This document shows positions 12,149 to 59,684 of a stretch of DNA of 64,000 nucleotides, piece after piece (the stretch's first letter is position 1; each line of letters begins with the position of its first letter). The position numbers were made by a program, and so were the translations under genes. Origin of the DNA: a virus (lineage: Duplodnaviria > Caudoviricetes). The stretch is taken from positions 32,001-96,000 of IMG/VR virus record IMGVR_UViG_3300025707_000003, one strand, 5' to 3'. The notes under the pieces are model-generated. The model did no database searches, was not told where the DNA came from, and was given only the letters and a program-made list of their open reading frames with translations.

Positions 12149-13123
12149 ATGATAAAGCTACTATGGAGAACAGATGTCCACATGGGAGATAAAACCCCAC
12201 GCAGACGCACTGGAAACTGGACGGATGATGTGGTCAACAAGCTCAAGTGGATTGGTGATCTCGCTAAGGATAAAGAGATTGACGCTGTACTTGATGGTGG
12301 AGACTTCTTTGATGTCAAATCACCCACCAAGAATAGCCATAGTTTAGTCCGTAAGGCTTGTGACGCACATGAGGGGTATCCTTGCCCTACTTATGGTCTA
12401 GTCGGCAACCACGATGTAAAATATGGCAATATAGACTACCTACCCGAACAACCTCTAGGAGTCCTATTCTCATCGGGTGTCTTTAAGCAGTTTGGCGATG
12501 ATGTAGAAATAAACTTTGAAAAAGATGGGGTCAAAGTTCGTGTAGTCGGTGTGCCTTATCATGGTGTCATTTATGACTTTGATCGGATCAAGAACATAAA
12601 AAAGAAAGACGAGGATTACCTACTAGTCGCTAGCCACCTCCTCGCTCGACAAGGTAAGACTGGATCAATGTTTGAGAATGAGGATATAGTTGGATATGAC
12701 TTCCTTAATGAGAACACAGAAGTAGACGCTTGGTTCTTTGGTCATTGGCACAAAGATCAAGGCATCTCCACGCTCTTAAATGGAGCAAGGGTTGTCAATG
12801 TAGGGTCATTAACAAGAGGTTCTTTACACCTTGATGACTTAGACCGTAGACCTTGTGTGGTAGAGGTTCAAGCCACCAAAGAGTCGCTTAACTTCATCAG
12901 ACACGATGTTCCTGTACGAGATGCCAATGAGGTATTCAAGATCGAGGAAACTGTGCGTGAAAAGGAAGATAAGCAACGAATGATCGACATTGTAGACAAG
13001 ATGAAAGCAGTAGCCACATCGGGTTGGTCTGAACTTACTCTTAAAGAGCGTGTAATGCAGACTATGGGTTCAAATGGAGCTAAGGAAATGGCTATCTCTT
13101 ATCTTGAACAAGTCGAGGATTAA
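12149..13123 (+). CDS. SbcD/Mre11-like metallophosphoesterase nuclease
   Basis: Calcineurin-like motifs DVH, GDFFD, GNHD, GHWH and VNVGSL. Confidence 0.8.
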   Translation: MIKLLWRTDVHMGDKTPRRRTGNWTDDVVNKLKWIGDLAKDKEIDAVLDGGDFFDVKSPTKNSHSLVRKACDAHEGYPCPTYGLVGNHDVKYGNIDYLPEQPLGVLFSSGVFKQFGDDVEINFEKDGVKVRVVGVPYHGVIYDFDRIKNIKKKDEDYLLVASHLLARQGKTGSMFENEDIVGYDFLNENTEVDAWFFGHWHKDQGISTLLNGARVVNVGSLTRGSLHLDDLDRRPCVVEVQATKESLNFIRHDVPVRDANEVFKIEETVREKEDKQRMIDIVDKMKAVATSGWSELTLKERVMQTMGSNGAKEMAISYLEQVED

Positions 13124-13124
13124 G
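13088..13124. repeat. 37 bp direct repeat copy 1 (3' end of SbcD-like gene)
   Basis: atggctatctcttatcttgaacaagtcgaggattaag; copy 2 at 13614-13650 has 2 mismatches. Confidence 0.95.
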
Positions 13125-13125
13125 A

Positions 13126-13512: not shown

Positions 13513-13613
13513 GGTTTTCTCCATTTTGTTTGTGGTTAAAGAGATCACTTATGAGAACCTATAAAAGAACTATTAAAACAAGAAATAGATAAAAGTAGGA
13601 ATAAGGGGTGGGG

Positions 13614-13650
13614 ATGGCTATCTCTTATCTTGAACGAGTCGAGGACTAAG
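13614..13650. repeat. 37 bp direct repeat copy 2 (duplicate of SbcD-like gene end)
   Basis: atggctatctcttatcttgaacgagtcgaggactaag lying between two leader cassettes. Confidence 0.95.
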
Positions 13651-13653
13651 TTA

Positions 13654-14121: not shown

Positions 14122-14181
14122 GGTTTTTCTCCATTTTGTTAAGGTTAATGAGATCACTTAAGATCAATTATAAATAAACTA

Positions 14182-16260
14182 TTAAAATCTATACCTCAAC
14201 CTAGAGTACCTAAGACCACTAGACGAGTTTCCTACACAAATCGCTACTGCGTCCTTATCTCCAATCAGCACTGCCTTATCCTTCGCTCTCGTGACAGCGG
14301 TGTAGAGCAAAGAGCGTTGTAAGAGGTTTGAACTATGTTCGGTGGTCATAGGCATAATGATGGTGTCGTACTCAAGACCTTGGCTCTTATGAACAGTCGT
14401 AGCATAAGCGAGTCTCAATAGCTTCCTTACTTGATCAGAAGGGATGTCTACGATTTGATCTTTTACACCTTTGATGAGTACGCTCACGCTTGTTTTATCA
14501 ATCGACCTAATACGACCTATATCACCATTATAAACATTGAGGTCATACTCATTCTTGGTGATCATAACTCGATCACCTACTCGGATTGAATCTTTACCTA
14601 CCCGAATGAAAGCACCTCCTATATCGGGGTTCAAAGCAGATCTAAGCTCTCTGTTAAGATTAGTAACACCCACTTTGCCATGATGAGTAGGACTAACCAC
14701 ATGGAAATCTATTTGATCCATGTGAAGCTCTTTACACCGTCCCACAATTTCATCGAGAATGTCTTGTGAGGTATAACGATCAATGAACTGATAATCTTTA
14801 TTGTGTTGTGGCACTTCACCTGCATGGATCTTGTGAGCGGCAATTGTCACCCCACTCCCCTCTCCTTGCCTAAAGATTTCTGTAAGGTGTTCTCTCGGTA
14901 CTGCGTTCGACTCAATAAGTTCCGAAAGAACAAACCCTGCACCAACAGGTGGAAGCTGTGCTATATCACCTACCATGATGACTCGACACTTGGGTGAGAT
15001 GCCTTTCATCACACGCCACATGAGGTGTAAGTCAATCATAGAGGATTCGTCTATAATGACAACTGACTCTGGTCGAGGATTCTGAGGATTATGTCTCCAT
15101 AGTTCTCGACTTGGGTCATTGCTATTGCCAATACCTTTAACTCCACTTTCTTCATCTTTCTTAACCCCTTCATAATCAGACTTGTCCTTCTTATCCTCTG
15201 AGGGCAATCCTGCACCGAACGCTCTATGGACTGTGAAAGCGTCCATATTGGTTAATGCACTAGCTCGTTTAGCGGCTATTCCTGTGGGGGCGATGAGTAA
15301 GATACTTTCTTTACGATCACGCAAGATTTTACAGAGCGTATTAAGGATAGTCGTCTTACCTGTTCCTGGTAATCCTGTCACGATTGAAAAAGGCTCTATA
15401 AGACCCTGTTGGATTGCTTTGAGTTGTGTATTGGTCAATGGGTAGCGTGAATATGCTTTAATGTCATCAATACTTATTGATTGAAGCATACTATTCACTC
15501 GGAGAGGAGATTTAATTTCTTCGGCAACAGCTACCTCCATTTTATGATAAGAAGGCAAATAAAGGGCAATAGAGGAGTCTTGTGATATCTTATCTACCAC
15601 AATGCGAGTCGGCTTCGCCTCTTTCATCGACTTGATGACTTGACCTATCTCTTTCGGGTTCGTCAAGCCTGTGAGGATAGCAGTATCTTTGAATACCGTA
15701 TTTGTGTCTAAATAACAATGACCTTGATACACACCTTGAAGCATAGACCAAAAGATAGAGGCTTCAACTCGACCTTCATTTTCTGGGTCAAAGTCCTTTT
15801 TAAGAAGCGTCTTAGCAATTTCATCAGCACCTTGAAAAGAGACACCTTTATAAACCAACGACCAAGGGTTTTTAGCAATAGAACTCGGAGATATTTGAAC
15901 ATCATTCCAAATAGAGTTTATGATGTTCAAAGGCACTCCTGCTTCAGACAGACTTGAGATAACCTCGATGGACTCTTGCATAAGAGGGTCAGACCAATCT
16001 GCCCAACTGTAGAGAGCCGACCCTTTAAGATACTTAGGGTTAATCGGATTACGAACTATATCAAGGTTCTTCTTCCCATTACGCTTGTCGAGGACTTCCT
16101 TACCTTGAAAGGTAAATACTTGACCTTTTGAAACAGGGCCTGCAATCTTACCTTTGACCACGATAGGCTTTGTATCGGCCTCAGAAGCTACGATACACCT
16201 TAGAATATAATAAGGTGGGTTGGCAAAAATCTGCCCCAACACTTTGGCAACATAAAACAC
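14182..16260 (-). CDS. recD2: RecD2-like (RecD/TraA family) SF1B helicase
   Basis: Walker A GLPGTGKTT, APTGIAAKR, IIDESSM, GDIAQLPPVG, AYATTVHKSQGLEY, LLYTAVTRAK; HhH-like N-terminal region. Confidence 0.85.
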   Translation of the reverse strand: MFYVAKVLGQIFANPPYYILRCIVASEADTKPIVVKGKIAGPVSKGQVFTFQGKEVLDKRNGKKNLDIVRNPINPKYLKGSALYSWADWSDPLMQESIEVISSLSEAGVPLNIINSIWNDVQISPSSIAKNPWSLVYKGVSFQGADEIAKTLLKKDFDPENEGRVEASIFWSMLQGVYQGHCYLDTNTVFKDTAILTGLTNPKEIGQVIKSMKEAKPTRIVVDKISQDSSIALYLPSYHKMEVAVAEEIKSPLRVNSMLQSISIDDIKAYSRYPLTNTQLKAIQQGLIEPFSIVTGLPGTGKTTILNTLCKILRDRKESILLIAPTGIAAKRASALTNMDAFTVHRAFGAGLPSEDKKDKSDYEGVKKDEESGVKGIGNSNDPSRELWRHNPQNPRPESVVIIDESSMIDLHLMWRVMKGISPKCRVIMVGDIAQLPPVGAGFVLSELIESNAVPREHLTEIFRQGEGSGVTIAAHKIHAGEVPQHNKDYQFIDRYTSQDILDEIVGRCKELHMDQIDFHVVSPTHHGKVGVTNLNRELRSALNPDIGGAFIRVGKDSIRVGDRVMITKNEYDLNVYNGDIGRIRSIDKTSVSVLIKGVKDQIVDIPSDQVRKLLRLAYATTVHKSQGLEYDTIIMPMTTEHSSNLLQRSLLYTAVTRAKDKAVLIGDKDAVAICVGNSSSGLRYSRLRYRF

Positions 16261-16374
16261 GAGAAGTCCTTTCTCTACTTAGGAGATCATTTTCTTGTGT
16301 TATATGATTTAACCCTAATACATCTAGCTGTTCGAGAGGAACTGCTCCATAGTAGTTGAACTCATCTTAGCCCC

Positions 16375-16971
16375 TTATTTTAAAAGATCGAACTCTTCTT
16401 TAGTTATATCTACTGGGTAGGGGTTGGGTTTGATGAGATGAGGATGGAACTCCACAAACATCGGCCCATGACAAACCTTTTGGATTGCGTCAAGATTCTT
16501 CTGTGTGTCTTCCCAAACAGAAACACTTGTGATGTTTGGGTACTTCTTTAAGAGATCAAATACTAACTTGGCTTTATACCTCGCTGTCGATCCAGTTCCT
16601 GGCTTTAAGTGAACCTCATCAAAATCAAGACCCTTCCCCTTTAACAACTCTGCAACACGATAACGCATCGCACCATTGTCATTAGGGCGACCTGTACACA
16701 TGATCGCAAGAGTGTCCATATCAGAGATTGATCTCTTAGCCTCAGAAACAACCCCACCATACCAATAATCCCCACTTGGCTTTTGAGGGACAAAAGGTTC
16801 ACTCAAACTAATTGCCTCATTAAACCAATAGCCCATCTTTTTCTTCGACCACCACTCTGGTGGTTCGGGGCTTCTGAAGAGGGTATTGTCAAAGTCAAAT
16901 ATGTGAAGCTCAAGATTTTCTGAGCTTGTTTTCATATACTTTGTAGCAACTCTCGCAACAAGATTTCTCAT
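16375..16971 (-). CDS. HAD-family phosphatase (Swiss Army Knife RNA-repair-like HAD) with RVATKYM leader
   Basis: HIFDFDNTLFRSP motif I, CTGR motif II, VWED motif IV; paralog of the N-terminal part of 42383..43147. Confidence 0.7.
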   Translation of the reverse strand: MRNLVARVATKYMKTSSENLELHIFDFDNTLFRSPEPPEWWSKKKMGYWFNEAISLSEPFVPQKPSGDYWYGGVVSEAKRSISDMDTLAIMCTGRPNDNGAMRYRVAELLKGKGLDFDEVHLKPGTGSTARYKAKLVFDLLKKYPNITSVSVWEDTQKNLDAIQKVCHGPMFVEFHPHLIKPNPYPVDITKEEFDLLK

Positions 16972-37895: not shown

Positions 37896-40250
37896 GTGCA
37901 GAATAAAACAAGTAGGATAAGAGTACCTAAACCATTGGTACGAGAGATTGTATCACATATATTCAGCCAAGTAGGTGTCTATAATGACCTCAGTATAAGT
38001 GTCTCAGTACCATCTCCACCGAGAGTTCATAGGTATCTTGCAGACTTAGACTTGAGAGTGGAGATAATACCTCCGAGTGCGTCTAGGAAGTTAGAATTTG
38101 AGGCTAAATACGATCCGACTAACTCTGTCATTTATGTAAATCTACCTTATTTAGAGAGTCGCTACGAAGGTAGAGAACTTGAACAATCTCTCTACAAAGT
38201 AGTCGCTCACGAGCTTGTTCATGTATATCAAATCCTCTATACAAGATCACGAGATAGCGATCCCAATGCAGTAAACCCAACAGCAGGACTTCCTGGTCTT
38301 AGAGAGAGAACTCCACAATATAGGCAAGAAGAAGGCGACATACTTCACCATCGCCTAGACGATAATGAGTTTTACCCACGCTTAGAGGATACGATCAATG
38401 CTATTAAATTTGTACTAAAGAGGAATCCTGGAAAATTAGTTGAAATAGTCTCTTATGTCTTAGGTGAGTCAAGTCGCCCTGTATATAGGTCTAAGCATTT
38501 AAAAGAGCCTATAGAATGGCTCATAGCTTTAGATAGATACGCACCTAGAAAGTTCATCAAAGCTGTAAGGAAGATTAAGAATGAGTTCCCCGAAACAGCT
38601 AAACTTACCCGTCAAGCCGATTTCTTTAGACAGGTTAGCCCACCCGATGAACTGAGTACCTTTAGCAATGGCACACCCACGGGTAAAGGTACAGATCTTG
38701 AAGATAAGGGTGAGGGGTCACAACTGCCTAATGGAGATGGGGCTAGGGACATAGGTCGTCCTAGCCCCGACTCACCGAATCTCAAATCAAGAAATCTTGA
38801 TCGTTCTGAGTCATATGGCAGGAAACCCGCTGAAAAACAAGACTTTGGTTATGTTCATGATAGTGGTAGCGGTAGTGCTAGGGTTATCCCTTATGATAGT
38901 GGTTTTGCGAACAACTCATCTCCTCTGAGAAAAGCATCCTCCAAAGTTAAACCCATGTTTTTAGGGTCTGACGGGTCAGCGATGGCTTATGATTTCTACT
39001 TTATGCGAGTCGAAAAAGACTACTATTATCACTACACATACAGAGATCGTGCTGATGAGATCATTGAAGATGGACATCTAAGACCTAACTTCTACAAAGA
39101 CCAGCCTGGTGCTAAAGGTGTGTTCGCTATTTCTGGATCTTATGGGCAAGTGGTTACGAGTCTTCAAGTCAGTGGTTCTAGGAAAGAACACATGGATAAA
39201 ATCGTAGCTCTCAAGTTTAAGACTAGAACTGAGCCTAAGTATGGATATCCCGAAGAAGTCATTTGGGATAAGCCTGTGAAACTTATTCGACCAGAGATTG
39301 TGGGCGTTTCAAAAGCAGTATCCGATCTGAACCGAAATGAAGACTTGGGAGAGAACTTCAAGGTGTTTTACGACTTCAAGAAGGCAGTCGAGATCAAAAA
39401 AGAACATGGGAAACCTAACGCTAAGTCTAAAACAGCGTCTATTAGTAGGATAGCTCATCGCTATCTTCAAAGTGCCGCCCAACCAGCTCAAGACTTGGCA
39501 GGTGTCAAAACTTGGGTTGATAAAAACCGACAAGACCAAGTTCAAAACGATACCTCTTCTCCAGATAAATCAAGAGAAGATTATGAAGATGGTAAGCCAC
39601 AGAGAGATCGAGTTCTTCCTTTACCAAATGGACACCCCGAAGGTCGAGATGAACAGCGAGTCGGCCCAGGTCAAATAAACTCACCTCCCGATTCTAGTGG
39701 TCAAGGTGGAGCGAACCGTCCAAAGAAAGACCCTAGTGCATTAAATGACCACCCCGATGGAAAAGCGTTACATGAACGACCTAGATCAAGCGGTATGCCT
39801 GGAGATGAGTATGGACACCCTTATATAGACCAATCCACATCTACGGGATTAAAGCGTAGAGTCATGGCTTCCATTGAGAAAATCTCTTATGTGGGAGAAG
39901 ATGACTTTTATGCAGAAGAAGAAGATTTCTATTGGGATATAGAAGATGGTGTGATGGTAAAAAATGCCCTCTTCAGATACAACTTCCGACCCCCAAGAGG
40001 GAATAAGAGACAGCGTTCTCAAAAGGGTCAGGCGAAACGAAAATCTCTAAAGACTAAGCGTAAATATAGAGTAAAATATCGTAGAAACCTCATTAAGCAA
40101 AAGAGGTTATACAAGCGTAAGAAACACAATCCTACTTACAAAAAGTACAAGAAAAACTATGCTAAAAACCCTCAGAAGTACAAGCGTAGACCTGGTGGTG
40201 TCAGCACAGTTAAACAAAAATCTCAAAGAGCAGAAAAAAGGAGAAAGTAA
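37896..40250 (+). CDS. Multidomain late protein: zincin-like HExxH domain, ART-like domain, highly basic C-terminus
   Basis: VAHELVH; YYHYT...I.EDGHL...GVF; K/R-rich last ~90 aa; class A motif at 37854-37866. Confidence 0.7.
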   Translation: MQNKTSRIRVPKPLVREIVSHIFSQVGVYNDLSISVSVPSPPRVHRYLADLDLRVEIIPPSASRKLEFEAKYDPTNSVIYVNLPYLESRYEGRELEQSLYKVVAHELVHVYQILYTRSRDSDPNAVNPTAGLPGLRERTPQYRQEEGDILHHRLDDNEFYPRLEDTINAIKFVLKRNPGKLVEIVSYVLGESSRPVYRSKHLKEPIEWLIALDRYAPRKFIKAVRKIKNEFPETAKLTRQADFFRQVSPPDELSTFSNGTPTGKGTDLEDKGEGSQLPNGDGARDIGRPSPDSPNLKSRNLDRSESYGRKPAEKQDFGYVHDSGSGSARVIPYDSGFANNSSPLRKASSKVKPMFLGSDGSAMAYDFYFMRVEKDYYYHYTYRDRADEIIEDGHLRPNFYKDQPGAKGVFAISGSYGQVVTSLQVSGSRKEHMDKIVALKFKTRTEPKYGYPEEVIWDKPVKLIRPEIVGVSKAVSDLNRNEDLGENFKVFYDFKKAVEIKKEHGKPNAKSKTASISRIAHRYLQSAAQPAQDLAGVKTWVDKNRQDQVQNDTSSPDKSREDYEDGKPQRDRVLPLPNGHPEGRDEQRVGPGQINSPPDSSGQGGANRPKKDPSALNDHPDGKALHERPRSSGMPGDEYGHPYIDQSTSTGLKRRVMASIEKISYVGEDDFYAEEEDFYWDIEDGVMVKNALFRYNFRPPRGNKRQRSQKGQAKRKSLKTKRKYRVKYRRNLIKQKRLYKRKKHNPTYKKYKKNYAKNPQKYKRRPGGVSTVKQKSQRAEKRRK

Positions 40251-40252
40251 CT

Positions 40253-41317
40253 ATGAGTGATTTCTTATCCGAAGAATTGTTTGCAGAGGAATTATCTGCC
40301 GAAGAGTTATTAGCTGGTCGAGCTAGACGAAAGACCAAGTATAAAATCAAACGCAGAAGGCGTATGAAAACTAGAACTAAGTCTTTACGCAAGAGAAACA
40401 CTAATGTGTCTCAAAAGCGTCAAAACAGAAAGAAGTATAAAAAGCGTATGAAGACGGACTCTAACTACAGGAAAAATCGTAAAGACTATCGTAAGCAGTA
40501 CTACAAGAAGAACAAGAGGGGTTCTATCGGGTATAGTTTGCCCTTTGGATTAGAATTCTTATATCAAGGAATACCTGCTTATCTTATGTCTCTTTCTGAG
40601 ATGTTTGATGCGGTCAATATCTATGTTGAAGGTGAAACTGCAATCTTAGTTGACCTCAATCATTTCTTAGATAACACTGAATGGTATGAAGAAGATGATG
40701 CTAACCTTTTCATCGATTTGATAGAGGAATCTTATGCTGTTTTAGAGGAAGATCCAGAGGATGCTTGGTCTGAGTATACCCTTGATGAGCGAGATCCCCC
40801 TGCCAAGTCTAATATAGATAAGAAATCTTCGAGGGCTACTGATATTTGTGATCGGACAGATAACCTTGCACTTCTTCAGATGCTCCTAGCTGTTCTTCGT
40901 GGTGCTCATTTTGCTCATTGGACTAGTCACTGGCAGGTTAAAGGCTCAAACTTCTATGGTGATCATGAAATGATGGATAACATTTACAGTACCCTCATTG
41001 AAGAAATCGACACCCTTGCAGAGAAGATTGTTGGTACATACGGTGGGGAAGCCGTTAATATGGTCGAACAGTCCCAACTAATGGCTAATCAGCTTTTACC
41101 TCTAGCCGAAGCACATAGCATGAATAACCCTATTCGTAGAGCCTTGCTGATTGAGGAGGGTTTACAGGTCATCTTTAGGAACACTTATGATATGCTCAAG
41201 GAACAAGGCGGTCTTACTTTAGGTATGGACGATTTTATTATGTCTATGGCTAACACACACGAGACTAACCTTTACCTTTTAAGACAGAGATGCGATACTC
41301 GACCAAAGATTAATTGA
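40253..41317 (+). CDS. Basic N-terminal region fused to a Dps/ferritin-like domain
   Basis: HWTSHWQVKGSNFYGDHEMMDNIY...EIDTLAEKI matches the Dps HWNVKG..F...H..f...y......D.iAER pattern. Confidence 0.7.
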   Translation: MSDFLSEELFAEELSAEELLAGRARRKTKYKIKRRRRMKTRTKSLRKRNTNVSQKRQNRKKYKKRMKTDSNYRKNRKDYRKQYYKKNKRGSIGYSLPFGLEFLYQGIPAYLMSLSEMFDAVNIYVEGETAILVDLNHFLDNTEWYEEDDANLFIDLIEESYAVLEEDPEDAWSEYTLDERDPPAKSNIDKKSSRATDICDRTDNLALLQMLLAVLRGAHFAHWTSHWQVKGSNFYGDHEMMDNIYSTLIEEIDTLAEKIVGTYGGEAVNMVEQSQLMANQLLPLAEAHSMNNPIRRALLIEEGLQVIFRNTYDMLKEQGGLTLGMDDFIMSMANTHETNLYLLRQRCDTRPKIN

Positions 41318-41478
41318 TATTATTCATCAGATATTATCGACACTTGGGTGAATCTAAAAAATAAATAAGAAAAGTTGGGCGACTTCTTGTGTATATCGTA
41401 TAAGAGTATGTGAGCAACAGAGCCAATCACTTAGGATGACTCGCTAAAGCTCTTAACCATTTATACAGGAGATCACAC

Positions 41479-42198
41479 ATGAGTGGATTTTCAGATTTCA
41501 GTCTCGGTTCTCAGTCCCCAATCCTTTCAGGTGGCAAAGTACGATGGAAGCCTCAAAAGGGTAAATTTCGTGTCACTTTTGCCGCTCTTCCAGGTCTTGA
41601 GGAAGAGGATGTTAAGTTTGAGGATAGCAACGGAGATCCTACTAACCCTTCTTTTAAAGGTGGTCGTAGACTTTACGCAAAAGATGTTGGGTACTTCTTG
41701 GATCATGGGCCAGAGTATCAAAAAATCGCAGGCAACCCTTCAAAGACTTCGATTGCTACTACTTTAATCTTTTGGCCTACAGATGCTAACGGTTCATTAG
41801 ATAAGGCTCGTTTCTCCAATGGTGAGTTTGAGATCAAAACTTGGATCTTCTCACTCGACAAGTATCGTCAACTTGAGTCAATCAACACTGAGTTCCCTTT
41901 GAGTCAACATGACATTTCAATCACTGTGACTGACCCTCAGTTCCATAAGATGACCTTTGCACCCTGTAAAGAGTCTTTGTTCAAGACCTTACATGATAAG
42001 GGATCTGATATGTTCAAGACTTGTATGGAGGCTGTAAAGCCTATCCACGCAAACATCCAGAATGATATCGCTCAAGACCTCACCATTGATCAGATTCGTG
42101 AGAAGATGAGTGGCTCAGTCGGTTCTCCTACAGGCAAGAGTGGTGGTGGATTCAATTCTAGCTTTGACGCAGATGAGATTCTTGACGGTATGCTCTAA
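41479..42198 (+). CDS. Single-stranded DNA-binding protein (gp32-like), putative
   Basis: 239 aa; Gly-rich linker and acidic tail FDADEILDGML; aromatic-rich core. Confidence 0.6.
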   Translation: MSGFSDFSLGSQSPILSGGKVRWKPQKGKFRVTFAALPGLEEEDVKFEDSNGDPTNPSFKGGRRLYAKDVGYFLDHGPEYQKIAGNPSKTSIATTLIFWPTDANGSLDKARFSNGEFEIKTWIFSLDKYRQLESINTEFPLSQHDISITVTDPQFHKMTFAPCKESLFKTLHDKGSDMFKTCMEAVKPIHANIQNDIAQDLTIDQIREKMSGSVGSPTGKSGGGFNSSFDADEILDGML

Positions 42199-42200
42199 AG
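42165..42200. repeat. 36 bp direct repeat copy 1 (3' end of SSB gene)
   Basis: tgacgcagatgagattcttgacggtatgctctaaag; identical copy at 43187-43222. Confidence 0.95.
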
Positions 42201-42266
42201 TCCTTGACTTTTTGACTTCGGTCATGGTTGAATATGCTCAATAGCCTTTGATTCATCTAAAGGCTC

Positions 42267-42314
42267 AATGCCCCTTAGACCCCTCATCGCCACAGAGGGT
42301 GTTTAAGGGGCATT
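42267..42314 (+). terminator. Long hairpin after the SSB gene, putative terminator
   Basis: aatgcccctta...taaggggcatt stem followed by a T-run. Confidence 0.5.
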
Positions 42315-42382
42315 ACTTTTTGTAGTCCTTTTATAGCCTCTCCTTTGGTGATCTCATTAACCCGAACCAATGGAGAAAAACC

Positions 42383-43147
42383 ATGAGAGCAGTACACATC
42401 TACGATTTTGACGGGACTTTATTTAGAACTCCACAAAGACCAAACTGGTATGACAATAACTTGGATGGGGTTTGGCATCAAAACCCATTGAGTTTTGCAG
42501 AACCTTGTCTACCTAAAGGTGAGCGTTGGGTTAAGTCTATTGTTTCAGAAGCTAAGAGAAGCATCGCCTCAAAGGATGTTTACACCATCGTCCTTACAGG
42601 GCGTAAGACACCTTTTCAAAGAGTAGTTGAGGATCTTTTAAGATCAAAAGGATTAAAGTTTGATGAGGTCATCTTGAAAGACAGAGGAGATACTGAGTCT
42701 TTTAAAAACAGAGTAATAGATCGCCTTATGGCACTGTTTCCTGATGCAGAGATCCACATCTGGGAAGATAGACATAATCATTTAAAAGTATTCATGGATC
42801 ACATCGAGATGAGAGGTGGCGTTGGAATCCCTCACGCAGTACCGCAAAACTACTCGGTGGCTGAATGTTCTGAAGAGGAGTTTAGGGATATGAGAAGATC
42901 AGCATCAGAAACTATTAGAAATCTTGAGCATCGCATTGCTCGACTTGAGGGGTCTAGGACAGCTTCAAGCGATGTTCGTAGAGCTGGCAAGAAAGTTATT
43001 GAAGCAATAGACAAGCTACAGGAAGAGCTTGAGAAGATGCCTTCCTTCAACAGTGATGAGTCTTACTATGAGGATTTAAGAGAGCGTTTTGAGGCACTTC
43101 ACCTTAGCGTCCATAAAGAGGTTCAGTTCATCACAGGTGCTTACTAA
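42383..43147 (+). CDS. HAD (Swiss Army Knife-like) phosphatase fused to an internal leader (ATG 42890) and a small helical domain
   Basis: IYDFDGTLFRTP, LTGR, IWEDR; internal MRRSASETIRNLEHRIARLEGSRTAS; conserved cassette UTR at 42348-42385. Confidence 0.8.
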   Translation: MRAVHIYDFDGTLFRTPQRPNWYDNNLDGVWHQNPLSFAEPCLPKGERWVKSIVSEAKRSIASKDVYTIVLTGRKTPFQRVVEDLLRSKGLKFDEVILKDRGDTESFKNRVIDRLMALFPDAEIHIWEDRHNHLKVFMDHIEMRGGVGIPHAVPQNYSVAECSEEEFRDMRRSASETIRNLEHRIARLEGSRTASSDVRRAGKKVIEAIDKLQEELEKMPSFNSDESYYEDLRERFEALHLSVHKEVQFITGAY

Positions 43148-43186
43148 GACTTAATCGTCTGAGACTCGAACACAGAGTTATACTGC

Positions 43187-43222
43187 TGACGCAGATGAGA
43201 TTCTTGACGGTATGCTCTAAAG
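43187..43222. repeat. 36 bp direct repeat copy 2 (duplicate SSB gene end)
   Basis: Perfect match to 42165-42200. Confidence 0.95.
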
Positions 43223-43247
43223 AAAAAGTGGGAGTGAAGGGTTACCT

Positions 43248-43910
43248 TCACTTTGAGGGTAAGATAACAGCGTATTTGCCACCCCATTGTGAAGAAGGTG
43301 GGATGTTAGGATCACCAGGAAAAGCTGTCAATAGGGAATAAGATTTACCCGCTTTGACATCTGAAAGGATAGCCTTTACACTCTTAGCATCATCGGGTAA
43401 AAACTTAGAGTTACTTGGTCGAATGACGAGGCTGATCTGATTGGTAGCGAAATCCCTTAGAGAAGCTGTAGTCTGAACAGCAGGTACAGTGATTTTCTTA
43501 CCCCTCTCTTCTTTTTGGACTGTTGTCTGAGTCGCACCAGGCAGTCTCATCGCTTCCTCAATCGGGAGGACAAGGTTATACCCTACATTGGAAGCCTTCA
43601 TGGTGTAGAGGCCACCTTGACCCTTAACAGGAGCTTTCTGAATGAGTTTGATAAGAGTACGCTCATCAATGCCTCTCGCAAAGACTGAACCTGTACCAAT
43701 GTCATTGTGTGCGGTAATGTGTTTAACAGCCCACTGAGATAAAAGAACATGACCTGCCCGTACTGGGATCTTCCATGTTCCTTTTTGAAGTTGACGAGGT
43801 TTGTCTCCTGTACCTGCTGACTTTAGATGTGCAAGTTTACGCTCAATGCCATTGATCCTTAGATCGAAGCTAACGATCTCTGCAAGTACCGATTGGATTT
43901 CTTTGTTCAT
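43248..43910 (-). CDS. Hypothetical late protein with a coiled-coil-like N-terminus
   Basis: 220 aa; class A motif 43949-43961 at the upstream stop; N-terminus ...LRINGIERKLAHLKSA. Confidence 0.7.
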   Translation of the reverse strand: MNKEIQSVLAEIVSFDLRINGIERKLAHLKSAGTGDKPRQLQKGTWKIPVRAGHVLLSQWAVKHITAHNDIGTGSVFARGIDERTLIKLIQKAPVKGQGGLYTMKASNVGYNLVLPIEEAMRLPGATQTTVQKEERGKKITVPAVQTTASLRDFATNQISLVIRPSNSKFLPDDAKSVKAILSDVKAGKSYSLLTAFPGDPNIPPSSQWGGKYAVILPSK

Positions 43911-43961
43911 GTCTGTTCTCCATATTTAAGGTTTTGTATGAAGGACAGTATAAAGAAACTA

Positions 43962-44585
43962 TTAAAGTCTTGACTTTTTAATCGCTTCTTTGAGCTTCTT
44001 TTCGTCATACACTTTGATGTTACTCTCACTTTGAAAAAGGTTGTGAGCTGATTTAACTTGAGATTGATTGAGCTTCATATTACCAGTAACCGTAATATCA
44101 TGTGTGTCTTTATCTTCAAGCCTAGTTGTAAATCCTGTGACCGAGGGCATGAGTAGCTTAATCAGTTTGGGGTCAATGTACTTGAGGGCTATATCCCAAA
44201 CCATTTCAAGTTCGACCTCGTTGGAGATGTTAATGGGGGAGTTACCATAAGAGGTAGGCATCTTTTGCCTATAGAGACTAATACCAGATTGAGTCCGAAG
44301 ATCCATATCAAAGAAAGGTACAGGTTTACCTGGTGGTGGAGGTGCATTTTCAAATGAAATCTTAATGTGTGCATGAATGATTTTATCCCCAAATGTCACC
44401 TTTGGCAGTACCGTACCCCAACCATGAAACACGACCAAGATTTCTCCTTGTTCAACAAGGCGGGCGATGAACTCTTGCTCAATGTCAGACATCGGAATGT
44501 AAAGGGAGTTTTCATTACCACCTCCAAATGTGTTCTTCCCTTTTTTCCGATTGGGGTCGTTTTTAATACCATTGATGTTGGTCAT
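43962..44585 (-). CDS. Hypothetical protein
   Basis: Start reassigned to ATG 44585 after AGGAG. Confidence 0.7.
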   Translation of the reverse strand: MTNINGIKNDPNRKKGKNTFGGGNENSLYIPMSDIEQEFIARLVEQGEILVVFHGWGTVLPKVTFGDKIIHAHIKISFENAPPPPGKPVPFFDMDLRTQSGISLYRQKMPTSYGNSPINISNEVELEMVWDIALKYIDPKLIKLLMPSVTGFTTRLEDKDTHDITVTGNMKLNQSQVKSAHNLFQSESNIKVYDEKKLKEAIKKSRL

Positions 44586-44612
44586 TGCTAGCAATCTCCT
44601 CATTTTAGGGTT

Positions 44613-46040
44613 TCAACCCTCTACTATACCACTCTCAAAAATGTGTTCTAGCATATCTACAATTGTTTCTATGCTCTCTAGTGTTCTCCCCGATGCAGTG
44701 AGCCTACGCATACTTGCTGTTCGAGTCGCCTCTCGAACAAACATCAGAGGGTCGAAGTGGAGCTTGGTCTTACCTGTGGTAATACTTTCTTTGAGCGTGT
44801 TTTGCATGGACGCAGTACTTAAGAATCTTAGCAAAACTTCTGGGTTGATATAAGATTTCTTAGTTGTACTGCCACTATCATGGCTTAATGCCACCTGTGC
44901 TCTTTCATGTGCTTTATTGATTGTGTCTGATACAATTTCAACAACCCGTTGGGTCAAGTCTTCAGTTTCTAGTTCTGCGACTTCTTTAATCTTTTCAAGC
45001 ATCGAGTCTCTTTCTTCTTGGAGTCCATCAAACACCTCTTGGGTCGCTCTTAACTTCCTAAAGTCAGTGATCTTAAAACCTTTGAAATTCTCTTTAAAGT
45101 ATTTCGCAAGATGTCTATAAGTGAACTTCTCTCCCTCACTAGTAACGAAGATATACTCAGAGCCAGATTCTAAGGCGTTGTCTACATAGTCCTTTAAAAC
45201 TTTGATGATAGATGAGTTGGATATGGAAGCTGTATTTACCGTTCCCATTTTCCCTCTGAAGACCAACTCGACAAAATTGTTTCGGACAAAGTTGACATGG
45301 GTGGCGTTCAAAGTGATTGCACCGAATGTTTCAACCTGCACTTCTTGTTCCTCCACAGTTTCTACAATCCCATTCCCTATTTGTCCTGGTCTTATTCCTG
45401 TTTCCATGATGATTGAAGTAATGATTGCAGATAACTTGGTTAGTTCATCTTTTGACTTGAGGTCTTTTTTAATCTTTTTTACGATGGTGTTGTACTTTTT
45501 GATGAGCTTCTTTTGAGACTTGATCTTCTCGGCTAAAGTATAAGTCTTGTTGCCGAACATATCGTTAATCGTCTTGATGTATCCCTCATCATCTACATCA
45601 ATCGTGATTGTGTCGGGCAGGTACGCCCTTAACTCCACAGGAATGGCAGATTTAAGAGGGGTTTGTTTTTTGTGGAGTTCTATCGCCTTAAAAGACCTAA
45701 CACTGTTTTTTTTGAATGTCTCGCTTACCTCTTTAAGAGGCTTTTGCCCAGCTAGGTAGTCTCGTATGAGGTACATCGTTGCATTTCTCCACGAATATGC
45801 TTTATCGCTTACCTCATCTGACCCCACAAACTTATTCATGAACCCTAAGACTTGAGACAAGTTTTTAATCGACTTAACTATATGTCTTTTCCTCTTACCT
45901 ATAACTGCTTTTCCCCTACCTTTGTGTTCAGATTTAGCTTGCACCCCATAGCTTTTAAGGTCTTTCAACAGGACTTTAAAGGCAGTAAGGGATTTGCGTT
46001 GAAACGCAGAGATTTTTTTTTCCTCTTGTGGTGTCGGCAT
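44613..46040 (-). CDS. Type IB DNA topoisomerase-like protein
   Basis: Catalytic residues in the expected order: TGIRPG (R), FRGKMG (K), DFRKLRAT (R), LSHDSGSTTKKSYINP (H...Y); start after AAAGGAG. Confidence 0.75.
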   Translation of the reverse strand: MPTPQEEKKISAFQRKSLTAFKVLLKDLKSYGVQAKSEHKGRGKAVIGKRKRHIVKSIKNLSQVLGFMNKFVGSDEVSDKAYSWRNATMYLIRDYLAGQKPLKEVSETFKKNSVRSFKAIELHKKQTPLKSAIPVELRAYLPDTITIDVDDEGYIKTINDMFGNKTYTLAEKIKSQKKLIKKYNTIVKKIKKDLKSKDELTKLSAIITSIIMETGIRPGQIGNGIVETVEEQEVQVETFGAITLNATHVNFVRNNFVELVFRGKMGTVNTASISNSSIIKVLKDYVDNALESGSEYIFVTSEGEKFTYRHLAKYFKENFKGFKITDFRKLRATQEVFDGLQEERDSMLEKIKEVAELETEDLTQRVVEIVSDTINKAHERAQVALSHDSGSTTKKSYINPEVLLRFLSTASMQNTLKESITTGKTKLHFDPLMFVREATRTASMRRLTASGRTLESIETIVDMLEHIFESGIVEG

Positions 46041-46072
46041 TTTAATTCTCCTTTTCTTTAGTGGTATCATAA

Positions 46073-57135: not shown

Positions 57136-57621
57136 ATGAACAACAATTTTGTTCCAGTTCCCACAGTAATGGAAGCCATGACAGGTTTCCTCTGTAGTAA
57201 GGCTTTTCTTATCTATCTAATTATATTTGGTGTTCTATTTTTTATATGGCTTTTTATCAAAAAAGAGAGGAGAGAAGAAGCTGATCTCTATCGAGCATTA
57301 GTGAGAGAAGTGAGAGAAAACCAAAATCTTAAGCGAAGACTAGGACAGACACCAAATGAAGAGCAAGATGATATGTACTCCAACGAGGTACTCACCTCGT
57401 CATATGATTTATGCGAATCATATACCAAAGATATCAAATGGAGAAACGCAGGTCTCAGACATGATATAAAAATACTAAACATCGAGGATAAAGAGACACT
57501 ATTGAAAGCGAAGGCTCTACTTTTGTACTTAACTACCTCGGAGAAACAAACCCCACAATTTATTGAGGGTGTTCAGAAAACGCTCAAGGTTATTACGATC
57601 CTAGAAAAGAGTGTAAGATGA
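57136..57621 (+). CDS. Hypothetical membrane protein
   Basis: 161 aa with one TM helix (FLIYLIIFGVLFFIWLFI); AAGGAG RBS. Confidence 0.65.
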   Translation: MNNNFVPVPTVMEAMTGFLCSKAFLIYLIIFGVLFFIWLFIKKERREEADLYRALVREVRENQNLKRRLGQTPNEEQDDMYSNEVLTSSYDLCESYTKDIKWRNAGLRHDIKILNIEDKETLLKAKALLLYLTTSEKQTPQFIEGVQKTLKVITILEKSVR

Positions 57622-58529
57622 GAGCGATACCATGCCCTATATCTAAAGAGCGTTTTGAAGACCTCTATACTAAACAATACTTAACAGAGAAGCAGATTAA
57701 CGAGTTGTTGATTTCTGAGGGTATTGACTCAAGCATGAAGCGTATTGGTAGTTGGAGACTACGCTATGGGATTGAAACGGTATCTAAGTTTGATCGTCTT
57801 GAGCTACCAAAGATTGAGGGGGAGTTAAGATCAATCCTTATTGGTTCTATGCTAGGTGACGGTCGTATTGTTTTTCGTACTAACGCTTCACACTATGAGG
57901 AACGACACGCACCCAATCAGAAAGAGTATCTTGAGTGGAAGCAAGAGAAGTGGGGCGTGTGGTCATCTGGAGATTTAGCAGTAGCGATGAGTAGGGAGTT
58001 CCCTAGTTATATCTTTCGCACCCACGCTCACCCTATGCTAAATGAGTATCGAGACTTGTTCTATGAGGAGAGGGATAAGGGGTGGAAAGTTGTTAAGTCT
58101 GATGTTATAGACCAAGTAGATGAGTTAGCTTTGGCTATGTGGTATCTCGATGATGGTCATGCAGGACATTGGCCTATGATTTGTTTTGGGGCAAAACAGG
58201 GGAGTCGAGCTAACGCTTACTTAATCTTTGAGAAGTTTGGTTTAGCCCCTAACTGGACACATAAAAAAGGGGAGACAGGAGAGTTCCACTTTAAGGGTGA
58301 GAACGCTTATCGTTTCATTGAGATCATTAAGCCTCATGTACCCGATTGTATGTCTTACAAGTTGGACTTTGGTTTTCAAGGTCGTAACAATGCTATCAAG
58401 AAAAAGATGGACAAAGGCATCTTAGAGGACTTAAGGAGTAAGGGGTGGGGTAAGCGTAGGATAGCTAGGTATCTTGATGTAGGGGCGAGTACAGTGGGTC
58501 GTTGGATGGTTAAGTTTGGAGTGGAGTGA
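57618..58529 (+). CDS. Free-standing LAGLIDADG homing endonuclease with HTH extensions
   Basis: LIGSMLGDGRI and LAMWYLDDG motifs; terminal HTH-like segments. Confidence 0.8.
   Translation: MRAIPCPISKERFEDLYTKQYLTEKQINELLISEGIDSSMKRIGSWRLRYGIETVSKFDRLELPKIEGELRSILIGSMLGDGRIVFRTNASHYEERHAPNQKEYLEWKQEKWGVWSSGDLAVAMSREFPSYIFRTHAHPMLNEYRDLFYEERDKGWKVVKSDVIDQVDELALAMWYLDDGHAGHWPMICFGAKQGSRANAYLIFEKFGLAPNWTHKKGETGEFHFKGENAYRFIEIIKPHVPDCMSYKLDFGFQGRNNAIKKKMDKGILEDLRSKGWGKRRIARYLDVGASTVGRWMVKFGVE
58474..58529. repeat. 56 bp direct repeat copy 1 (3' end of LAGLIDADG gene)
   Basis: Copies at 58942-58997 (3 mismatches), 59583-59616 (34 bp, perfect) and 61341-61358 (16/18). Confidence 0.95.
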
Positions 58530-58600
58530 GGACTTTGATAGTTTATTTATAATAGATCTTAAGTGATCTCTTTAACCAAGAATCCAAATGGAGAAACATT

Positions 58601-58915
58601 ATGCGTAGATCAGCATCAGAAATCATCAATAACCTTGAGAATAGGGTTGCACGACTTGAATCAAGTTCTAACCCTCGTCAAGCTAAAGATGCTTATGATA
58701 TTTGGAGAAGGAAAGTAGATCAGTACATCATTAAGGAAATGCGGGTCACTTTTGAATACGAAACAAAAGACGGTGAACACTCCGAAGACTATATAAACAG
58801 TCTTTGGCAAGATGGAGTTAAGCCATCACGAGCCTCCAAAAATATCATGCAGAAATTTCAATGGTTAAAGTCAGCGGGTATGCTAAAGCATCATAAATAT
58901 TATGATGCTATTTGA
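58601..58915 (+). CDS. Leader-family protein (MRRSASEIINNLENRVARLE), 104 aa
   Basis: Class A motif at 58539-58551 and conserved UTR. Confidence 0.8.
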   Translation: MRRSASEIINNLENRVARLESSSNPRQAKDAYDIWRRKVDQYIIKEMRVTFEYETKDGEHSEDYINSLWQDGVKPSRASKNIMQKFQWLKSAGMLKHHKYYDAI

Positions 58916-58941
58916 ATGGTTATTGAAAGGGATCTAGGGAT

Positions 58942-58997
58942 TTGATGTAGGGGCGAGTACAGTGAGTCGTTGGATGGTTAAGTTTGGGGTGGATTGA
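58942..58997. repeat. Direct repeat copy 2 of the LAGLIDADG gene end
   Basis: ttgatgtaggggcgagtacagtgagtcgttggatggttaagtttggggtggattga. Confidence 0.95.
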
Positions 58998-59044
58998 TTT
59001 GTAGTTTATTTATTAGTGTCTATTATCCATAAAGGAGAGACACC

Positions 59045-59575
59045 ATGAGACTTACTATCGCTTTACTCTTATCTGTCTTGCTCACCTCTACGATTTCTCA
59101 CGCTGAAGAGAATAACTGGGAAGTGAGTCTAGGCACAACGCAAATGTTCATCGGTGGGTACGAAGAGGGTTCAATACCTGTACCTACGAACTCTGCCACA
59201 TTCATCTTATCTCGTAAGATGTATGAGAGCTTTGCATTATGGGTTGTGTTCAATCTACCTACCTCCTCTAACAAAAGGTTTACAGAGGAAGGTTTACTTG
59301 TAGAGTCTCAGACACCACCTAGTCTTATGCTAGGTGCGAGTTATGAGTTATTGGGCTATGAGATCTCCGACAAGAAATCTTTAGGTCTTGATGTTGGTGC
59401 TTCAGTCGGACACACGATTACGCTTAATGGTCAGTTCTTCCCTGTGGGTGCGTTTCGTTTGAAGTTCGTTAAAGACGAGGACAGCACTATGTATGCAGGG
59501 GTGACAACCTCACCATATAATCCAGATGGTGATTTGGTTTGGGGTTTGATCTATGGCATGGGGTATAGATTTTAA
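59045..59575 (+). CDS. Secreted protein, possibly an outer-membrane beta-barrel
   Basis: Sec signal peptide (…TISHA), alternating beta-strand pattern, C-terminal YGMGYRF with terminal Phe; class A motif at 59002-59014. Confidence 0.6.
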   Translation: MRLTIALLLSVLLTSTISHAEENNWEVSLGTTQMFIGGYEEGSIPVPTNSATFILSRKMYESFALWVVFNLPTSSNKRFTEEGLLVESQTPPSLMLGASYELLGYEISDKKSLGLDVGASVGHTITLNGQFFPVGAFRLKFVKDEDSTMYAGVTTSPYNPDGDLVWGLIYGMGYRF

Positions 59576-59582
59576 TGTGAGT

Positions 59583-59616
59583 GCGAGTACAGTGGGTCGT
59601 TGGATGGTTAAGTTTG
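59583..59616. repeat. Direct repeat copy 3 of the LAGLIDADG gene end
   Basis: gcgagtacagtgggtcgttggatggttaagtttg. Confidence 0.95.
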
Positions 59617-59684
59617 AGGTTTTGTAGTTTCTTTATAATAGATCTTAAGTGATCTCTTTAACCTTAATCAAATGGAGAACCATT

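What the first reader, a model, noticed from the sequence alone, without database searches (positions are those of the whole stretch)
42165..43222. Second gene-end duplication: perfect 36 bp copy of the SSB 3' end around the HAD-leader cassette
Seen: tgacgcagatgagattcttgacggtatgctctaaag occurs at 42165-42200 and 43187-43222 and encloses ~990 bp containing a hairpin, class A motif, conserved UTR and gene 42383..43147. The repeat sequence is unrelated to the SbcD-locus repeat, so these are not att sites of one integrase; each repeat is the local gene end. Perfect identity suggests a recent event. Long (34-56 bp), variable-length duplications anchored on stop codons are unusual for IS-type target-site duplications.
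Basis: partly seen in the sequence, partly recalled or inferred. Interest (0 to 1): 0.75.

Follow-up and report, generated by a model that had tools for sequence, protein, structure and literature searches.

The report
Recombination scar beside phage SSB gene
The second copy of the SSB gene's last 36 bases is a leftover seam from sloppy recombination that joined two related giant marine phage genomes and deleted two metabolic genes; it is not the footprint of a jumping gene cassette, and this is a clear but ordinary case of phage genome shuffling.

Summary
An exact 36-bp direct repeat lies at 42165-42200 and 43187-43222, none is expected by chance, and it recurs in independent assemblies.

The reading as a recent cassette insertion does not hold.
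- About 17 related loci from marine giant-phage contigs carry the same hairpin terminator, late promoter, UTR and leader gene directly after SSB, with only one SSB end. That slot is ancestral.
- Copy 2 abuts the last ~16 codons of a convergent GMP-reductase/IMPDH-like gene. This gene is intact in relatives and deleted here, together with an FMN-reductase-like gene and a small gene.
- The joint shares 5 nt (TGACG).
- In contigs with the same scar, the DNA right of it is 99.2-99.9% identical to a relative (L013), while the SSB part left of it is only 91% identical. L013 has SSB next to the right-hand gene and no cassette.

Copy 2 is therefore a novel joint of illegitimate, probably homology-facilitated, recombination between lineages. 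The scar predates the HAD module: a second haplotype has the same two copies 740 bp apart around a leader gene without HAD.

I found no evidence for an integrase, a transposon or an assembly artefact. The scan noted this stretch twice more on this genome, and similar scars in other genomes.

The parts
41479..42198 (+). gp32-like single-stranded DNA-binding protein gene (239 aa) with an acidic C-terminal tail ...FDADEILDGML
   Evidence: ORF. There is no Pfam or PHROG hit. The AF2 model's top six PDB fold hits are all gp32. It is 88-94% identical in aa to homologues in about 17 related loci.
42165..42200 (+). Repeat copy 1: the native 3' end of the SSB gene (31 coding nt + TAA + AG)
   Evidence: The same sequence sits at the same place, as a single copy, in all relatives.
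42201..42382 (+). Ancestral intergenic region. It holds small hairpins, a 19-bp hairpin (42267-42314) followed by a T-run (the SSB terminator), promoter-like TGTAGTCCTTTTATA (42321-42335), UTR GGTGATCTCATTAACC (42348-42363) and RBS GGAG
   Evidence: Fold z = -6.05. The region is conserved after SSB in L001, L002, L012, L014, L015, L017-L020 and L066.
42383..43147 (+). Mosaic gene (254 aa). It consists of a HAD_SAK_1 module (42383-42889), a 20-aa MRRSASETIRNLEHRIARLE leader (42890-42949) and a C-terminal module (42950-43144)
   Evidence: Pfam E = 1e-20. The UTR+HAD+leader segment 42371-42948 is 97.8% identical to L065, where it sits at an unrelated locus fused to other cargo. The C-terminal 66 aa are identical to those of the 160-aa leader gene P0128. 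L012 and L014 have the orthologous leader gene without HAD.
43144..43191 (-). Remnant of the last ~16 codons plus the stop of a convergent IMPDH/GMP-reductase-like gene that is otherwise deleted from this phage
   Evidence: 52 nt are 94% identical to L017 6116-6167 (E = 3e-18). tblastn of the L017 352-aa protein hits the own genome only at residues 337-353, with 88% identity. The L017 protein matches PF00478 at E = 5e-66.
43187..43191 (.). Left joint: the 5-nt microhomology TGACG shared by the IMPDH-like gene end (relatives read ...ctgctgacgRacacg) and the SSB end (...ctttgacgcagatg)
   Evidence: Alignment A1 and the sequences.
43187..43222 (+). Repeat copy 2: a non-coding second SSB end, the recombination scar
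   Evidence: It is present with identical joints in L068-L073 and L027 and absent from all other relatives.
43223..43252 (-). Intrinsic terminator of the minus-strand gene (stem-loop 43233-43252 followed by a T-tract). These 27 nt have no counterpart in any relative without the scar
   Evidence: Terminator scan, fold and blastn.
43248..43910 (-). 220-aa gene of unknown function. It is the short form of a 488-aa gene in L013 and L068, and the right-arm homology with relatives starts at its stop codon

Best explanation
Copy 1 is simply the end of the gp32-like SSB gene. Copy 2 is a 'novel joint' left by illegitimate recombination between two related co-infecting phage genomes, of the homology-facilitated kind. 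The left parent carried SSB, a terminator, a late promoter, a leader gene and then a convergent GMP-reductase/IMPDH-like gene. The right parent had SSB lying next to the 488/220-aa gene, as L013 does today. One end of the exchange was presumably ordinary homologous recombination in or left of SSB. The other end joined the 3' end of the left parent's IMPDH-like gene to a point 36 nt before the end of the right parent's SSB gene, using the 5-nt microhomology TGACG. The product keeps one intact SSB gene, the leader-gene slot, ~16 codons of the IMPDH-like gene, a useless second SSB end, and the right arm. Compared with L017- or L066-type genomes it lacks the IMPDH-like gene, an FMN-reductase-like gene and a small gene. 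Homologous recombination at the shared UTR and leader later swapped the HAD+leader module into the enclosed gene.

Shown: the repeat, the gene remnant, the microhomology, single-copy relatives with intact genes, and different ancestry left and right of the scar. Inferred: the enzymatic route, the direction of the exchange and the position of the left crossover. Taken together, I rate 'a recombination scar rather than a mobile-element footprint' at about 0.9. The confidence of 0.55 given here applies to the inter-lineage version specifically.
For: (1) The slot is ancestral. About 17 related loci have the same intergenic region and leader gene after SSB with one SSB end.
(2) Copy 2 directly abuts 48-52 nt that are 88-94% identical to the 3' end of the IMPDH-like gene of L017, L014, L030, L012 and L002. 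The own contig holds only residues 337-353 of that protein.
(3) TGACG is shared at the joint.
(4) L066 and L067 show an intact left-parent type: SSB, HAD-leader gene (357 aa), IMPDH(-), FMN reductase(-), a 113-aa gene, a 207-aa gene and TopoIB, with one SSB end.
(5) L013 shows a right-parent type, with SSB 150 nt from the 488-aa gene and no leader gene. That form co-occurs with the window form in 3 of 4 runs laid.
(6) The ancestry is mosaic. In the gap-free contig L071 the SSB part left of copy 1 is 91% identical to L013, while the 1,563 nt right of the scar are 99.94% identical. L069 and L070 are 99.2-99.5% identical to L013 over 3.6-4.8 kb on the right.
(7) The segment has no terminal inverted repeats and no mobility gene.
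(8) The same scar lies around a different gene, at 740-bp spacing, in L068 and L071-L073.
Against: No right parent with the exact sequence 'SSB end + aaaaagtgggag...' as a single copy was found. L013 has a different 150-nt spacer, and its SSB end differs from the repeat at 1 of 36 positions, so the parents' SSB ends would have had to be identical or later homogenised. Perfect identity of the two copies follows more naturally from an intragenomic copy. The left (homologous) crossover is not located, because L068 has a scaffold gap there. Frequent homologous recombination in these phages could have produced the left/right ancestry contrast after the scar formed.
Confidence: 0.55

Rival explanations
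1. The event was intragenomic or between sister genomes. In an L017-like ancestor (SSB, leader gene, IMPDH, FMN reductase, small gene, 220/488-aa gene), replication switched template twice, or an out-of-register duplication at TGACG was followed by a deletion. About 2 kb was removed and a 27-36-nt templated copy of the phage's own SSB end was left at the joint.
For: It explains the perfect 36/36 identity of the two copies without further assumptions. L017 and L030-L032 have all the required genes in the required order. TGACG lies at the left joint. AAAG may be shared at the right joint, and 9 nt (aaagtggga) resemble the 3' end of the small gene at about the right distance from the 220-aa gene's stop.
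Against: The 9-nt match is not significant: 100 of 2000 shuffles reached it for L017 and 310 of 2000 for L030. The model does not predict that the right arm is 99.9% L013-like while the left is 91%, so it needs an extra homologous exchange ending at the scar. No tandem-duplication intermediate was found.
Confidence: 0.25
2. The insertion was Campbell-type or mini-circle. A circle holding [SSB end, intergenic region, leader gene, IMPDH stub] was excised from one phage at the TGACG microhomology. It then integrated by a single homologous crossover within the 36 bp into a phage whose SSB abutted the 488-aa gene. This would be analogous to PeSL mini-circles in T4-type phages.
For: It gives exactly the observed geometry. 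Mini-circles of promoter-flanked ORFs exist in RB49/phi1 infections (PMC2839356). Relatives without the cassette co-occur in the same samples.
Against: It needs two rare events, one of them relying on only 36 bp of homology. It predicts that SSB immediately left of copy 1 has the recipient's (L013-like) ancestry, but in L071 that part is 91% identical to L013 against 99.94% on the right. No empty-site form was found in IMG/VR.
Confidence: 0.08
3. The repeats are sites of a dedicated recombinase or transposase, either as att-like cores or as a long target-site duplication. The neighbouring type IB topoisomerase/tyrosine-recombinase-like protein (44613..46070) would be a candidate enzyme.
For: Identical direct repeats that include a gene's 3' end resemble the attL/attR of elements that integrate into gene ends. 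A Topoisom_I (E = 2e-13) / weak Phage_integrase protein is encoded 1.4 kb away.
Against: The enclosed unit is present without any duplication in about 17 relatives. Copy 2 is fused to a truncated neighbouring gene. The three repeat loci share no sequence beyond the hexamer TCTTGA, which is enriched 4-fold across the genome. The segment has no terminal inverted repeats. The TopoIB-like gene is conserved in relatives with and without the scar. No CCCTT-type site lies at either joint (read directly).
Confidence: 0.03
4. The duplication is an assembly artefact.
For: None was found. Short repeats do break k=31 unitigs.
Against: A 36-bp repeat is shorter than a sequencing read. Independent assemblies built with k119-k141 and SPAdes give the same joints (L027, L069, L071-L073). 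Depth is equal across the flanks and the enclosed gene in X8.
Confidence: 0.01

Closest known systems
Homology-facilitated illegitimate recombination (HFIR). It was first described in Acinetobacter, Streptococcus pneumoniae and Pseudomonas stutzeri transformation; it is defined in PMC3240628 and invoked for the T6SS effector-immunity arrays of Vibrio cholerae in PMC5361080.
   Same: One end of the exchange is anchored by homology and the other is joined at a few bases of microhomology. The result brings in foreign genes and leaves stubs of the displaced or neighbouring genes, such as orphaned 3' regions, at the seam.
   Different: Here the partners are two co-replicating phage genomes, not transforming DNA entering a chromosome. 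The enzymes are unknown, and the homologous left crossover has not been located.
Novel joints from illegitimate recombination in phage mosaicism. This is the Hendrix-type model (named from my own knowledge). The debate with homeologous recombination is covered in PMC2327257.
   Same: There is a sharp transition between modules of different ancestry at a gene boundary, with microhomology and a gene stub. Only products that keep the essential gene (SSB) intact survive.
   Different: Most described joints leave no duplication. Here the joint fell 36 nt inside the second parent's SSB gene, so a perfect direct repeat remains.
PeSL (promoter-early stem-loop) regulatory cassettes and mini-circles in hyperplastic regions of T4-type phages (PMC2839356, PMC4122927).
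   Same: Small genes with a conserved terminator hairpin and promoter lie in a hypervariable slot between core genes. Recombination at the shared regulatory and leader sequence swaps genes; here the HAD+leader module is bounded by the UTR and the leader.
   Different: The 36-bp repeat is not the regulatory motif but a coding gene end. Its joint is illegitimate, not a crossover between two PeSL-like motifs. The promoter is of a late type and is coupled to an N-terminal peptide leader.
attL/attR of integrative elements that insert into the 3' end of tRNA or protein genes, and IS target-site duplications.
   Same: Direct repeats bracket a segment, and the upstream repeat completes the gene.
   Different: The segment encodes no recombinase and has no inverted ends. 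The repeat differs in sequence and length at each locus. The bracketed unit is ancestral in relatives. A truncated neighbouring gene abuts copy 2.

Membership tests
Illegitimate-recombination novel joint (HFIR-like scar) | A truncated stub of a gene that is intact in relatives lies directly at the joint | tested here: met
   Window 43140-43191 is 94% identical to the end of the L017 IMPDH-like gene. Only residues 337-353 of that protein are left in the own contig.
Illegitimate-recombination novel joint (HFIR-like scar) | Only a few bases of microhomology at the joint, with no long homology | tested here: met
   TGACG (5 nt) is shared at the left joint. At most 4 nt (AAAG) are shared at the right edge, which is inconclusive.
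Illegitimate-recombination novel joint (HFIR-like scar) | Different ancestry on the two sides of the joint | tested here: met
   Against L013, L071 is 91% identical left of the scar and 99.94% identical right of it. L069 and L070 are 99.2-99.5% identical on the right.
Illegitimate-recombination novel joint (HFIR-like scar) | A homologous anchor crossover on the other side | tested here: inconclusive
   The L068 left arm is 99.5% L013-like, but it is separated by a 100-N scaffold gap inside or upstream of SSB.
IS/transposon target-site duplication | A short duplication of fixed length, with terminal inverted repeats and a transposase in or near the element | tested here: not met
   The repeat is 36 bp here, against 55-56 nt at the two other loci. 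There are no terminal inverted repeats. The only enclosed gene is the HAD-leader gene.
IS/transposon target-site duplication | Relatives show an empty site that lacks the whole bracketed unit | tested here: not met
   Relatives with one SSB end still carry the intergenic region and a leader gene. L013, which lacks the leader gene, has a different 150-nt spacer and not a precise empty site.
Integrase-mediated insertion into a gene 3' end (attL/attR) | A recombinase gene belonging to the element, and the same core sequence at every insertion | tested here: not met
   The segment holds no recombinase. The TopoIB-like gene nearby is conserved irrespective of the scar. The three repeat loci are unrelated in sequence.
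PeSL-type cassette shuffling | The exchange occurs between two copies of the conserved promoter/stem-loop motif that flank the ORF | tested here: not met
   This verdict applies to the 36-bp repeat, which is a gene end and not the motif. In analogy, the feature is met for the HAD swap, whose borders are the UTR and the leader.
Campbell-type insertion duplication | Both outer flanks have the recipient's ancestry and only the interior is foreign | tested here: not met
   SSB immediately left of copy 1 is 91% identical to L013, against 99.94% on the right.
gp32-type SSB (identity of the gene whose end is repeated) | A gp32-like OB-fold core with an acidic C-terminal tail | tested here: inconclusive
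   The top six PDB fold hits are all gp32, but the scores are modest (E = 1.8e-3, TM 0.42-0.47). There is no sequence-family hit. The acidic tail is read directly from the sequence.

The most novel reading that the evidence does not exclude
The gene-end copies at three loci of this 83-kb contig (SSB, SbcD, LAGLIDADG endonuclease) may not be independent accidents. They could be the regular by-product of a semi-dedicated cassette-capture route in these giant marine phages. Examples would be mini-circles or break repair (perhaps started by the homing endonuclease, or at the strong terminator hairpins) that integrate through very short homology at the ends of core genes. The perfect 36-bp repeat would then still be an active excision and integration site.
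Probability: 0.08. Interest if true: 0.6.

Novelty: new member of a known kind. Interest (0 to 1): 0.3.

Why it matters
This is a well-resolved fossil of how variable slots between core genes turn over in uncultured giant marine phages. A single sloppy joint removed a GMP-reductase-like and an FMN-reductase-like auxiliary gene. It left a datable seam, and the gene inside was then rebuilt by recombination at a shared promoter, UTR and leader. It also shows why direct repeats that bracket a gene should not be read as target-site duplications without looking at relatives. The finding does not point to a new mobility mechanism.

Tried and rejected
- Megablast of 40200-45000 against the phage collection found no match.
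- L011, the only IMG/VR relative of the 220-aa gene, is distant and not informative for this locus.
- Exact-pattern scans of IMG/VR found nothing for the 27-nt terminator, for a single-copy 'SSB end + aaaaagtggg' right parent or precise empty site, or for the left joint in other contexts. The own record may be hidden from these scans.
- Logan contigs (k=31) break at the 36-mer, so they cannot show or exclude a copy1-by-copy2 deletion product. Parts of the enclosed region without cover in X10, X11 and X16 were not interpreted.
- The 9-nt similarity (aaagtggga) between the spacer right of copy 2 and the small gene's 3' end in relatives is not significant.
- A hexamer shared by the three repeat loci (TCTTGA) is compositional: 163 occurrences against 41 expected.
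- A poxvirus-type TopoIB site (CCCTT) at the joints is absent (read directly).
- A PDB sequence search for SSB gave only a chance ribosomal hit. The Atlas gave only a weak gp32 lead (score 0.89).
- A 41-bp exact repeat in L019 and L020 turned out to be an in-frame domain duplication inside a 1152-aa protein, not a gene-end scar.
- The exact 220-aa protein is not on record in the contig index.
Full report
OBSERVATION. The 36-mer TGACGCAGATGAGATTCTTGACGGTATGCTCTAAAG occurs exactly twice, at 42165-42200 and 43187-43222. There is no third copy at up to 3 mismatches and none in 100 shuffles. Among exact repeats in the whole 83,364-bp contig it is second only to a 38-bp in-frame tandem repeat. The window is the reverse complement of contig positions 5058-69057, and CheckV rates the contig about 27% complete. 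Copy 1 is the last 31 coding bases, TAA and AG of ORF 41479..42198. The bases before and after the two copies differ.

The duplication is not an assembly artefact. An ENA assembly (L027, 141 kb) is 100% identical over 8,720 bp and includes both copies. In run X8, which is not flagged as a possible source, contigs for the left flank, the enclosed gene and the right flank have depths of 9.66, 9.85 and 8.88.

GENES. ORF 41479..42198 (239 aa) has no Pfam, PHROG or PDB sequence hit. An AlphaFold model built on 10 homologues (pLDDT 71) has T4/RB69 gp32 as its six best PDB matches, with E = 1.8e-3 to 0.13 and TM 0.32-0.47. The protein also ends in an acidic tail. 'SSB' is therefore probable.

The intergenic region 42201-42382 folds into several hairpins (z = -6.05). 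A 19-bp hairpin with a T-run is followed by TGTAGTCCTTTTATA, GGTGATCTCATTAACC and an RBS.

Gene 42383..43147 has three parts: a HAD_SAK_1 domain (E = 1e-20), an internal MRRSASETIRNLEHRIARLE leader at 42890-42949, and an 65-aa tail. Downstream on the minus strand lie a 220-aa gene, a 213-aa gene and a 485-aa type IB topoisomerase-like gene.

RELATIVES SHOW THE 'CASSETTE' IS ANCESTRAL. SSB homologues (88-94% aa identity) were fetched from IMG/VR (L001, L002; the latter comes from a 375,691-bp contig) and from marine metagenomes (L012-L023). Every one has a single SSB end. Most continue with the same palindrome, hairpin terminator, promoter, UTR and an MRRSAS-leader gene. The unit between the two copies was therefore not recently inserted there.

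WHAT LIES AT COPY 2. The 48-52 nt just left of copy 2 (43140-43191) are 94% identical to L017 and 92% to L014, L030 and L031. They are 88% identical to L012 and L002. In those loci this is the 3' end of a minus-strand gene that converges on the leader gene.

That gene (352 aa) is an IMPDH/GMP-reductase-domain protein (PF00478, E = 5e-66). It is followed by an FMN-reductase/flavodoxin-like gene (228-229 aa) and a small plus-strand gene of 105-116 aa. tblastn of the three L017 proteins against the own contig finds only residues 337-353 of the first, at 43144-43194.

Alignment A1 shows the window following the IMPDH-like gene end up to ...TTATACTGCTGACG and then switching to the SSB end ...CAGATGAG. 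The shared bases are TGACG.

To the right of copy 2 come 27 nt that form the terminator of the 220-aa gene. They have no homologue in relatives, and homology resumes exactly at that gene's stop codon.

PARENTAL TYPES.
- L066 and L067 carry SSB, a HAD-leader gene (357 aa, 87% identical), IMPDH(-), FMN reductase(-), a 113-aa gene, a 207-aa gene(-) and TopoIB(-). They have one SSB end.
- L013 carries SSB, a 150-nt spacer and the 488-aa form of the 220-aa gene, with no leader gene.
- Contigs of the L013 form are present beside the window form in 3 of the 4 runs laid (joint 42210->43250 with 142 letters between). They come from a diverged strain (13 differences in 127 nt), so they are not a precise empty site.

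THE SCAR IS SHARED AND MARKS A CHANGE OF ANCESTRY. Contigs L068 and L071-L073 carry the same two perfect copies with identical joints, and L069 and L070 carry the right half. In these contigs the copies are 740 bp apart. They enclose a 160-aa leader gene without HAD, whose last 66 aa equal those of the window gene, and they are followed by the 488-aa gene. The scar is therefore older than the HAD module.

The UTR+HAD+leader segment 42371-42948 is 97.8% identical to L065. There it sits at an unrelated locus and is fused to different cargo. The HAD module therefore came in by recombination at the shared UTR and leader.

In L071, a gap-free contig, the SSB part left of copy 1 is 91% identical to L013. 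The 1,563 nt right of the scar differ from L013 at a single position (99.94% identical). L069 and L070 are 99.2-99.5% identical to L013 over 3.6-4.8 kb on the right. A lineage breakpoint therefore lies at the scar.

INTERPRETATION. The simplest account has three elements. A left arm of the leader-gene/IMPDH type was joined to a right arm of an L013-like type in which SSB neighbours the 488-aa gene. The joint formed at TGACG, 36 nt before the end of the right parent's SSB gene. The other end of the exchange was presumably homologous recombination in or left of SSB. This is homology-facilitated illegitimate recombination, as defined in PMC3240628 and proposed for gene-stub-bearing arrays in PMC5361080.

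Survivors must keep one intact SSB gene, which explains why such seams look 'anchored on a stop codon'.

An intragenomic double template switch, or a duplication followed by a deletion, in an L017-like ancestor remains possible. It explains the perfect identity of the copies better. However, it needs an extra exchange to explain the ancestry contrast, and its only specific support, a 9-nt match, is not significant.

Campbell-type integration of a circle is disfavoured, because SSB just left of copy 1 does not have the recipient's ancestry.

A recombinase or transposon reading fails on several counts:
- the segment has no inverted ends;
- it has no mobility gene;
- the repeat loci share no motif beyond a compositional hexamer;
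- the TopoIB-like gene is conserved whether or not the scar is present.

THE OTHER TWO LOCI. The SbcD gene (12149..13123; Metallophos) has its last ~37 nt plus 18 more nt repeated at 13614-13668 (84% identity). The repeat lies on the far side of a minus-strand leader gene. Relatives L033 and L034 have one SbcD end, and L034 has only the outer cassette.

The end of the LAGLIDADG_2 endonuclease gene (57618..58529) occurs three times. An earlier follow-up in this scan read those copies as out-of-register recombination scars. These are lineage-specific seams of the same general kind.

Across about 450 kb of related loci, no further gene-end repeats of 24 bp or more were found, apart from the inherited SSB scar.

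VERDICT. The reading as a mobile-cassette footprint is not supported. The feature is a recombination scar of a known kind in a hypervariable region of an uncultured giant marine phage. It is of modest interest and documents the loss of two auxiliary metabolic genes.

Noticed in passing
window 42371-42948; L065 324-901; proteins P0122-P0127: The UTR+HAD_SAK_1+leader stretch is itself a portable N-terminal module. It is 97.8% identical at an unrelated locus (L065) fused to other cargo. Variants carry tails that include Peptidase_C39-type domains (P0126, P0127). A HAD domain placed in front of a presumed capsid-targeting leader is an odd architecture.
   Followed up: partly
window 12149-14190: The SbcD/Mre11-like gene end (13088-13142) is repeated at 13614-13668 (55 nt, 84% identity) on the far side of a minus-strand leader gene. 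Relatives L033 and L034 have one copy, so a cassette was gained here with a gene-end scar.
   Followed up: partly
window 57618-59627: The 3' end of the LAGLIDADG_2 homing endonuclease gene (an HTH-like tail) is present three times (58474, 58942, 59572), each time in front of a promoter and a small gene.
   Followed up: partly
window 44613-46070 (-): A 485-aa protein has a eukaryotic/poxvirus-type topoisomerase IB catalytic core (PF01028, E = 2e-13) and a weak Phage_integrase hit. It is conserved at this position in all relatives examined.
   Followed up: no
window 41479-42198 versus L013 4998-5714: The SSB gene is itself a mosaic relative to L013. The first 360 nt are about 19% diverged, the next 180 nt about 2%, and the last 180 nt about 12%.
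   Followed up: no
window 43248-43962; L013 5868-7334; L068 3701-5167: The 220-aa gene is the C-terminal part of a 488-aa gene in L013 and L068. L017 and L030-L032 share the short form. Runs X11 and X16 show a joint 43802->43950 that fits the long form.
   Followed up: partly
window 16345-16908 (-): A second HAD_SAK_1 paralogue is 35% identical to the one at 42383. The match contains an in-frame TAA, so it may be a broken gene or two genes.
   Followed up: no
L020 632-1767 (also L019): A 41-bp exact repeat 1,095 bp apart lies in frame inside a 1152-aa protein upstream of SSB (...KKKTSGLIRPPQHL... occurs twice). This is a recent internal domain duplication.
   Followed up: partly
window 40253-41317 (+): The 354-aa protein upstream of SSB has weak DUF5856/ferritin-like (Dps-like) matches and a PHROG 'DNA binding protein' hit.
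   Followed up: no
window 42201-42320 and relatives: The SSB terminator region appears to keep its long hairpin through paired changes between relatives (for example gcccc...ggggc here versus gtctc...gagac in L002). Covariation was not formally tested.
   Followed up: no
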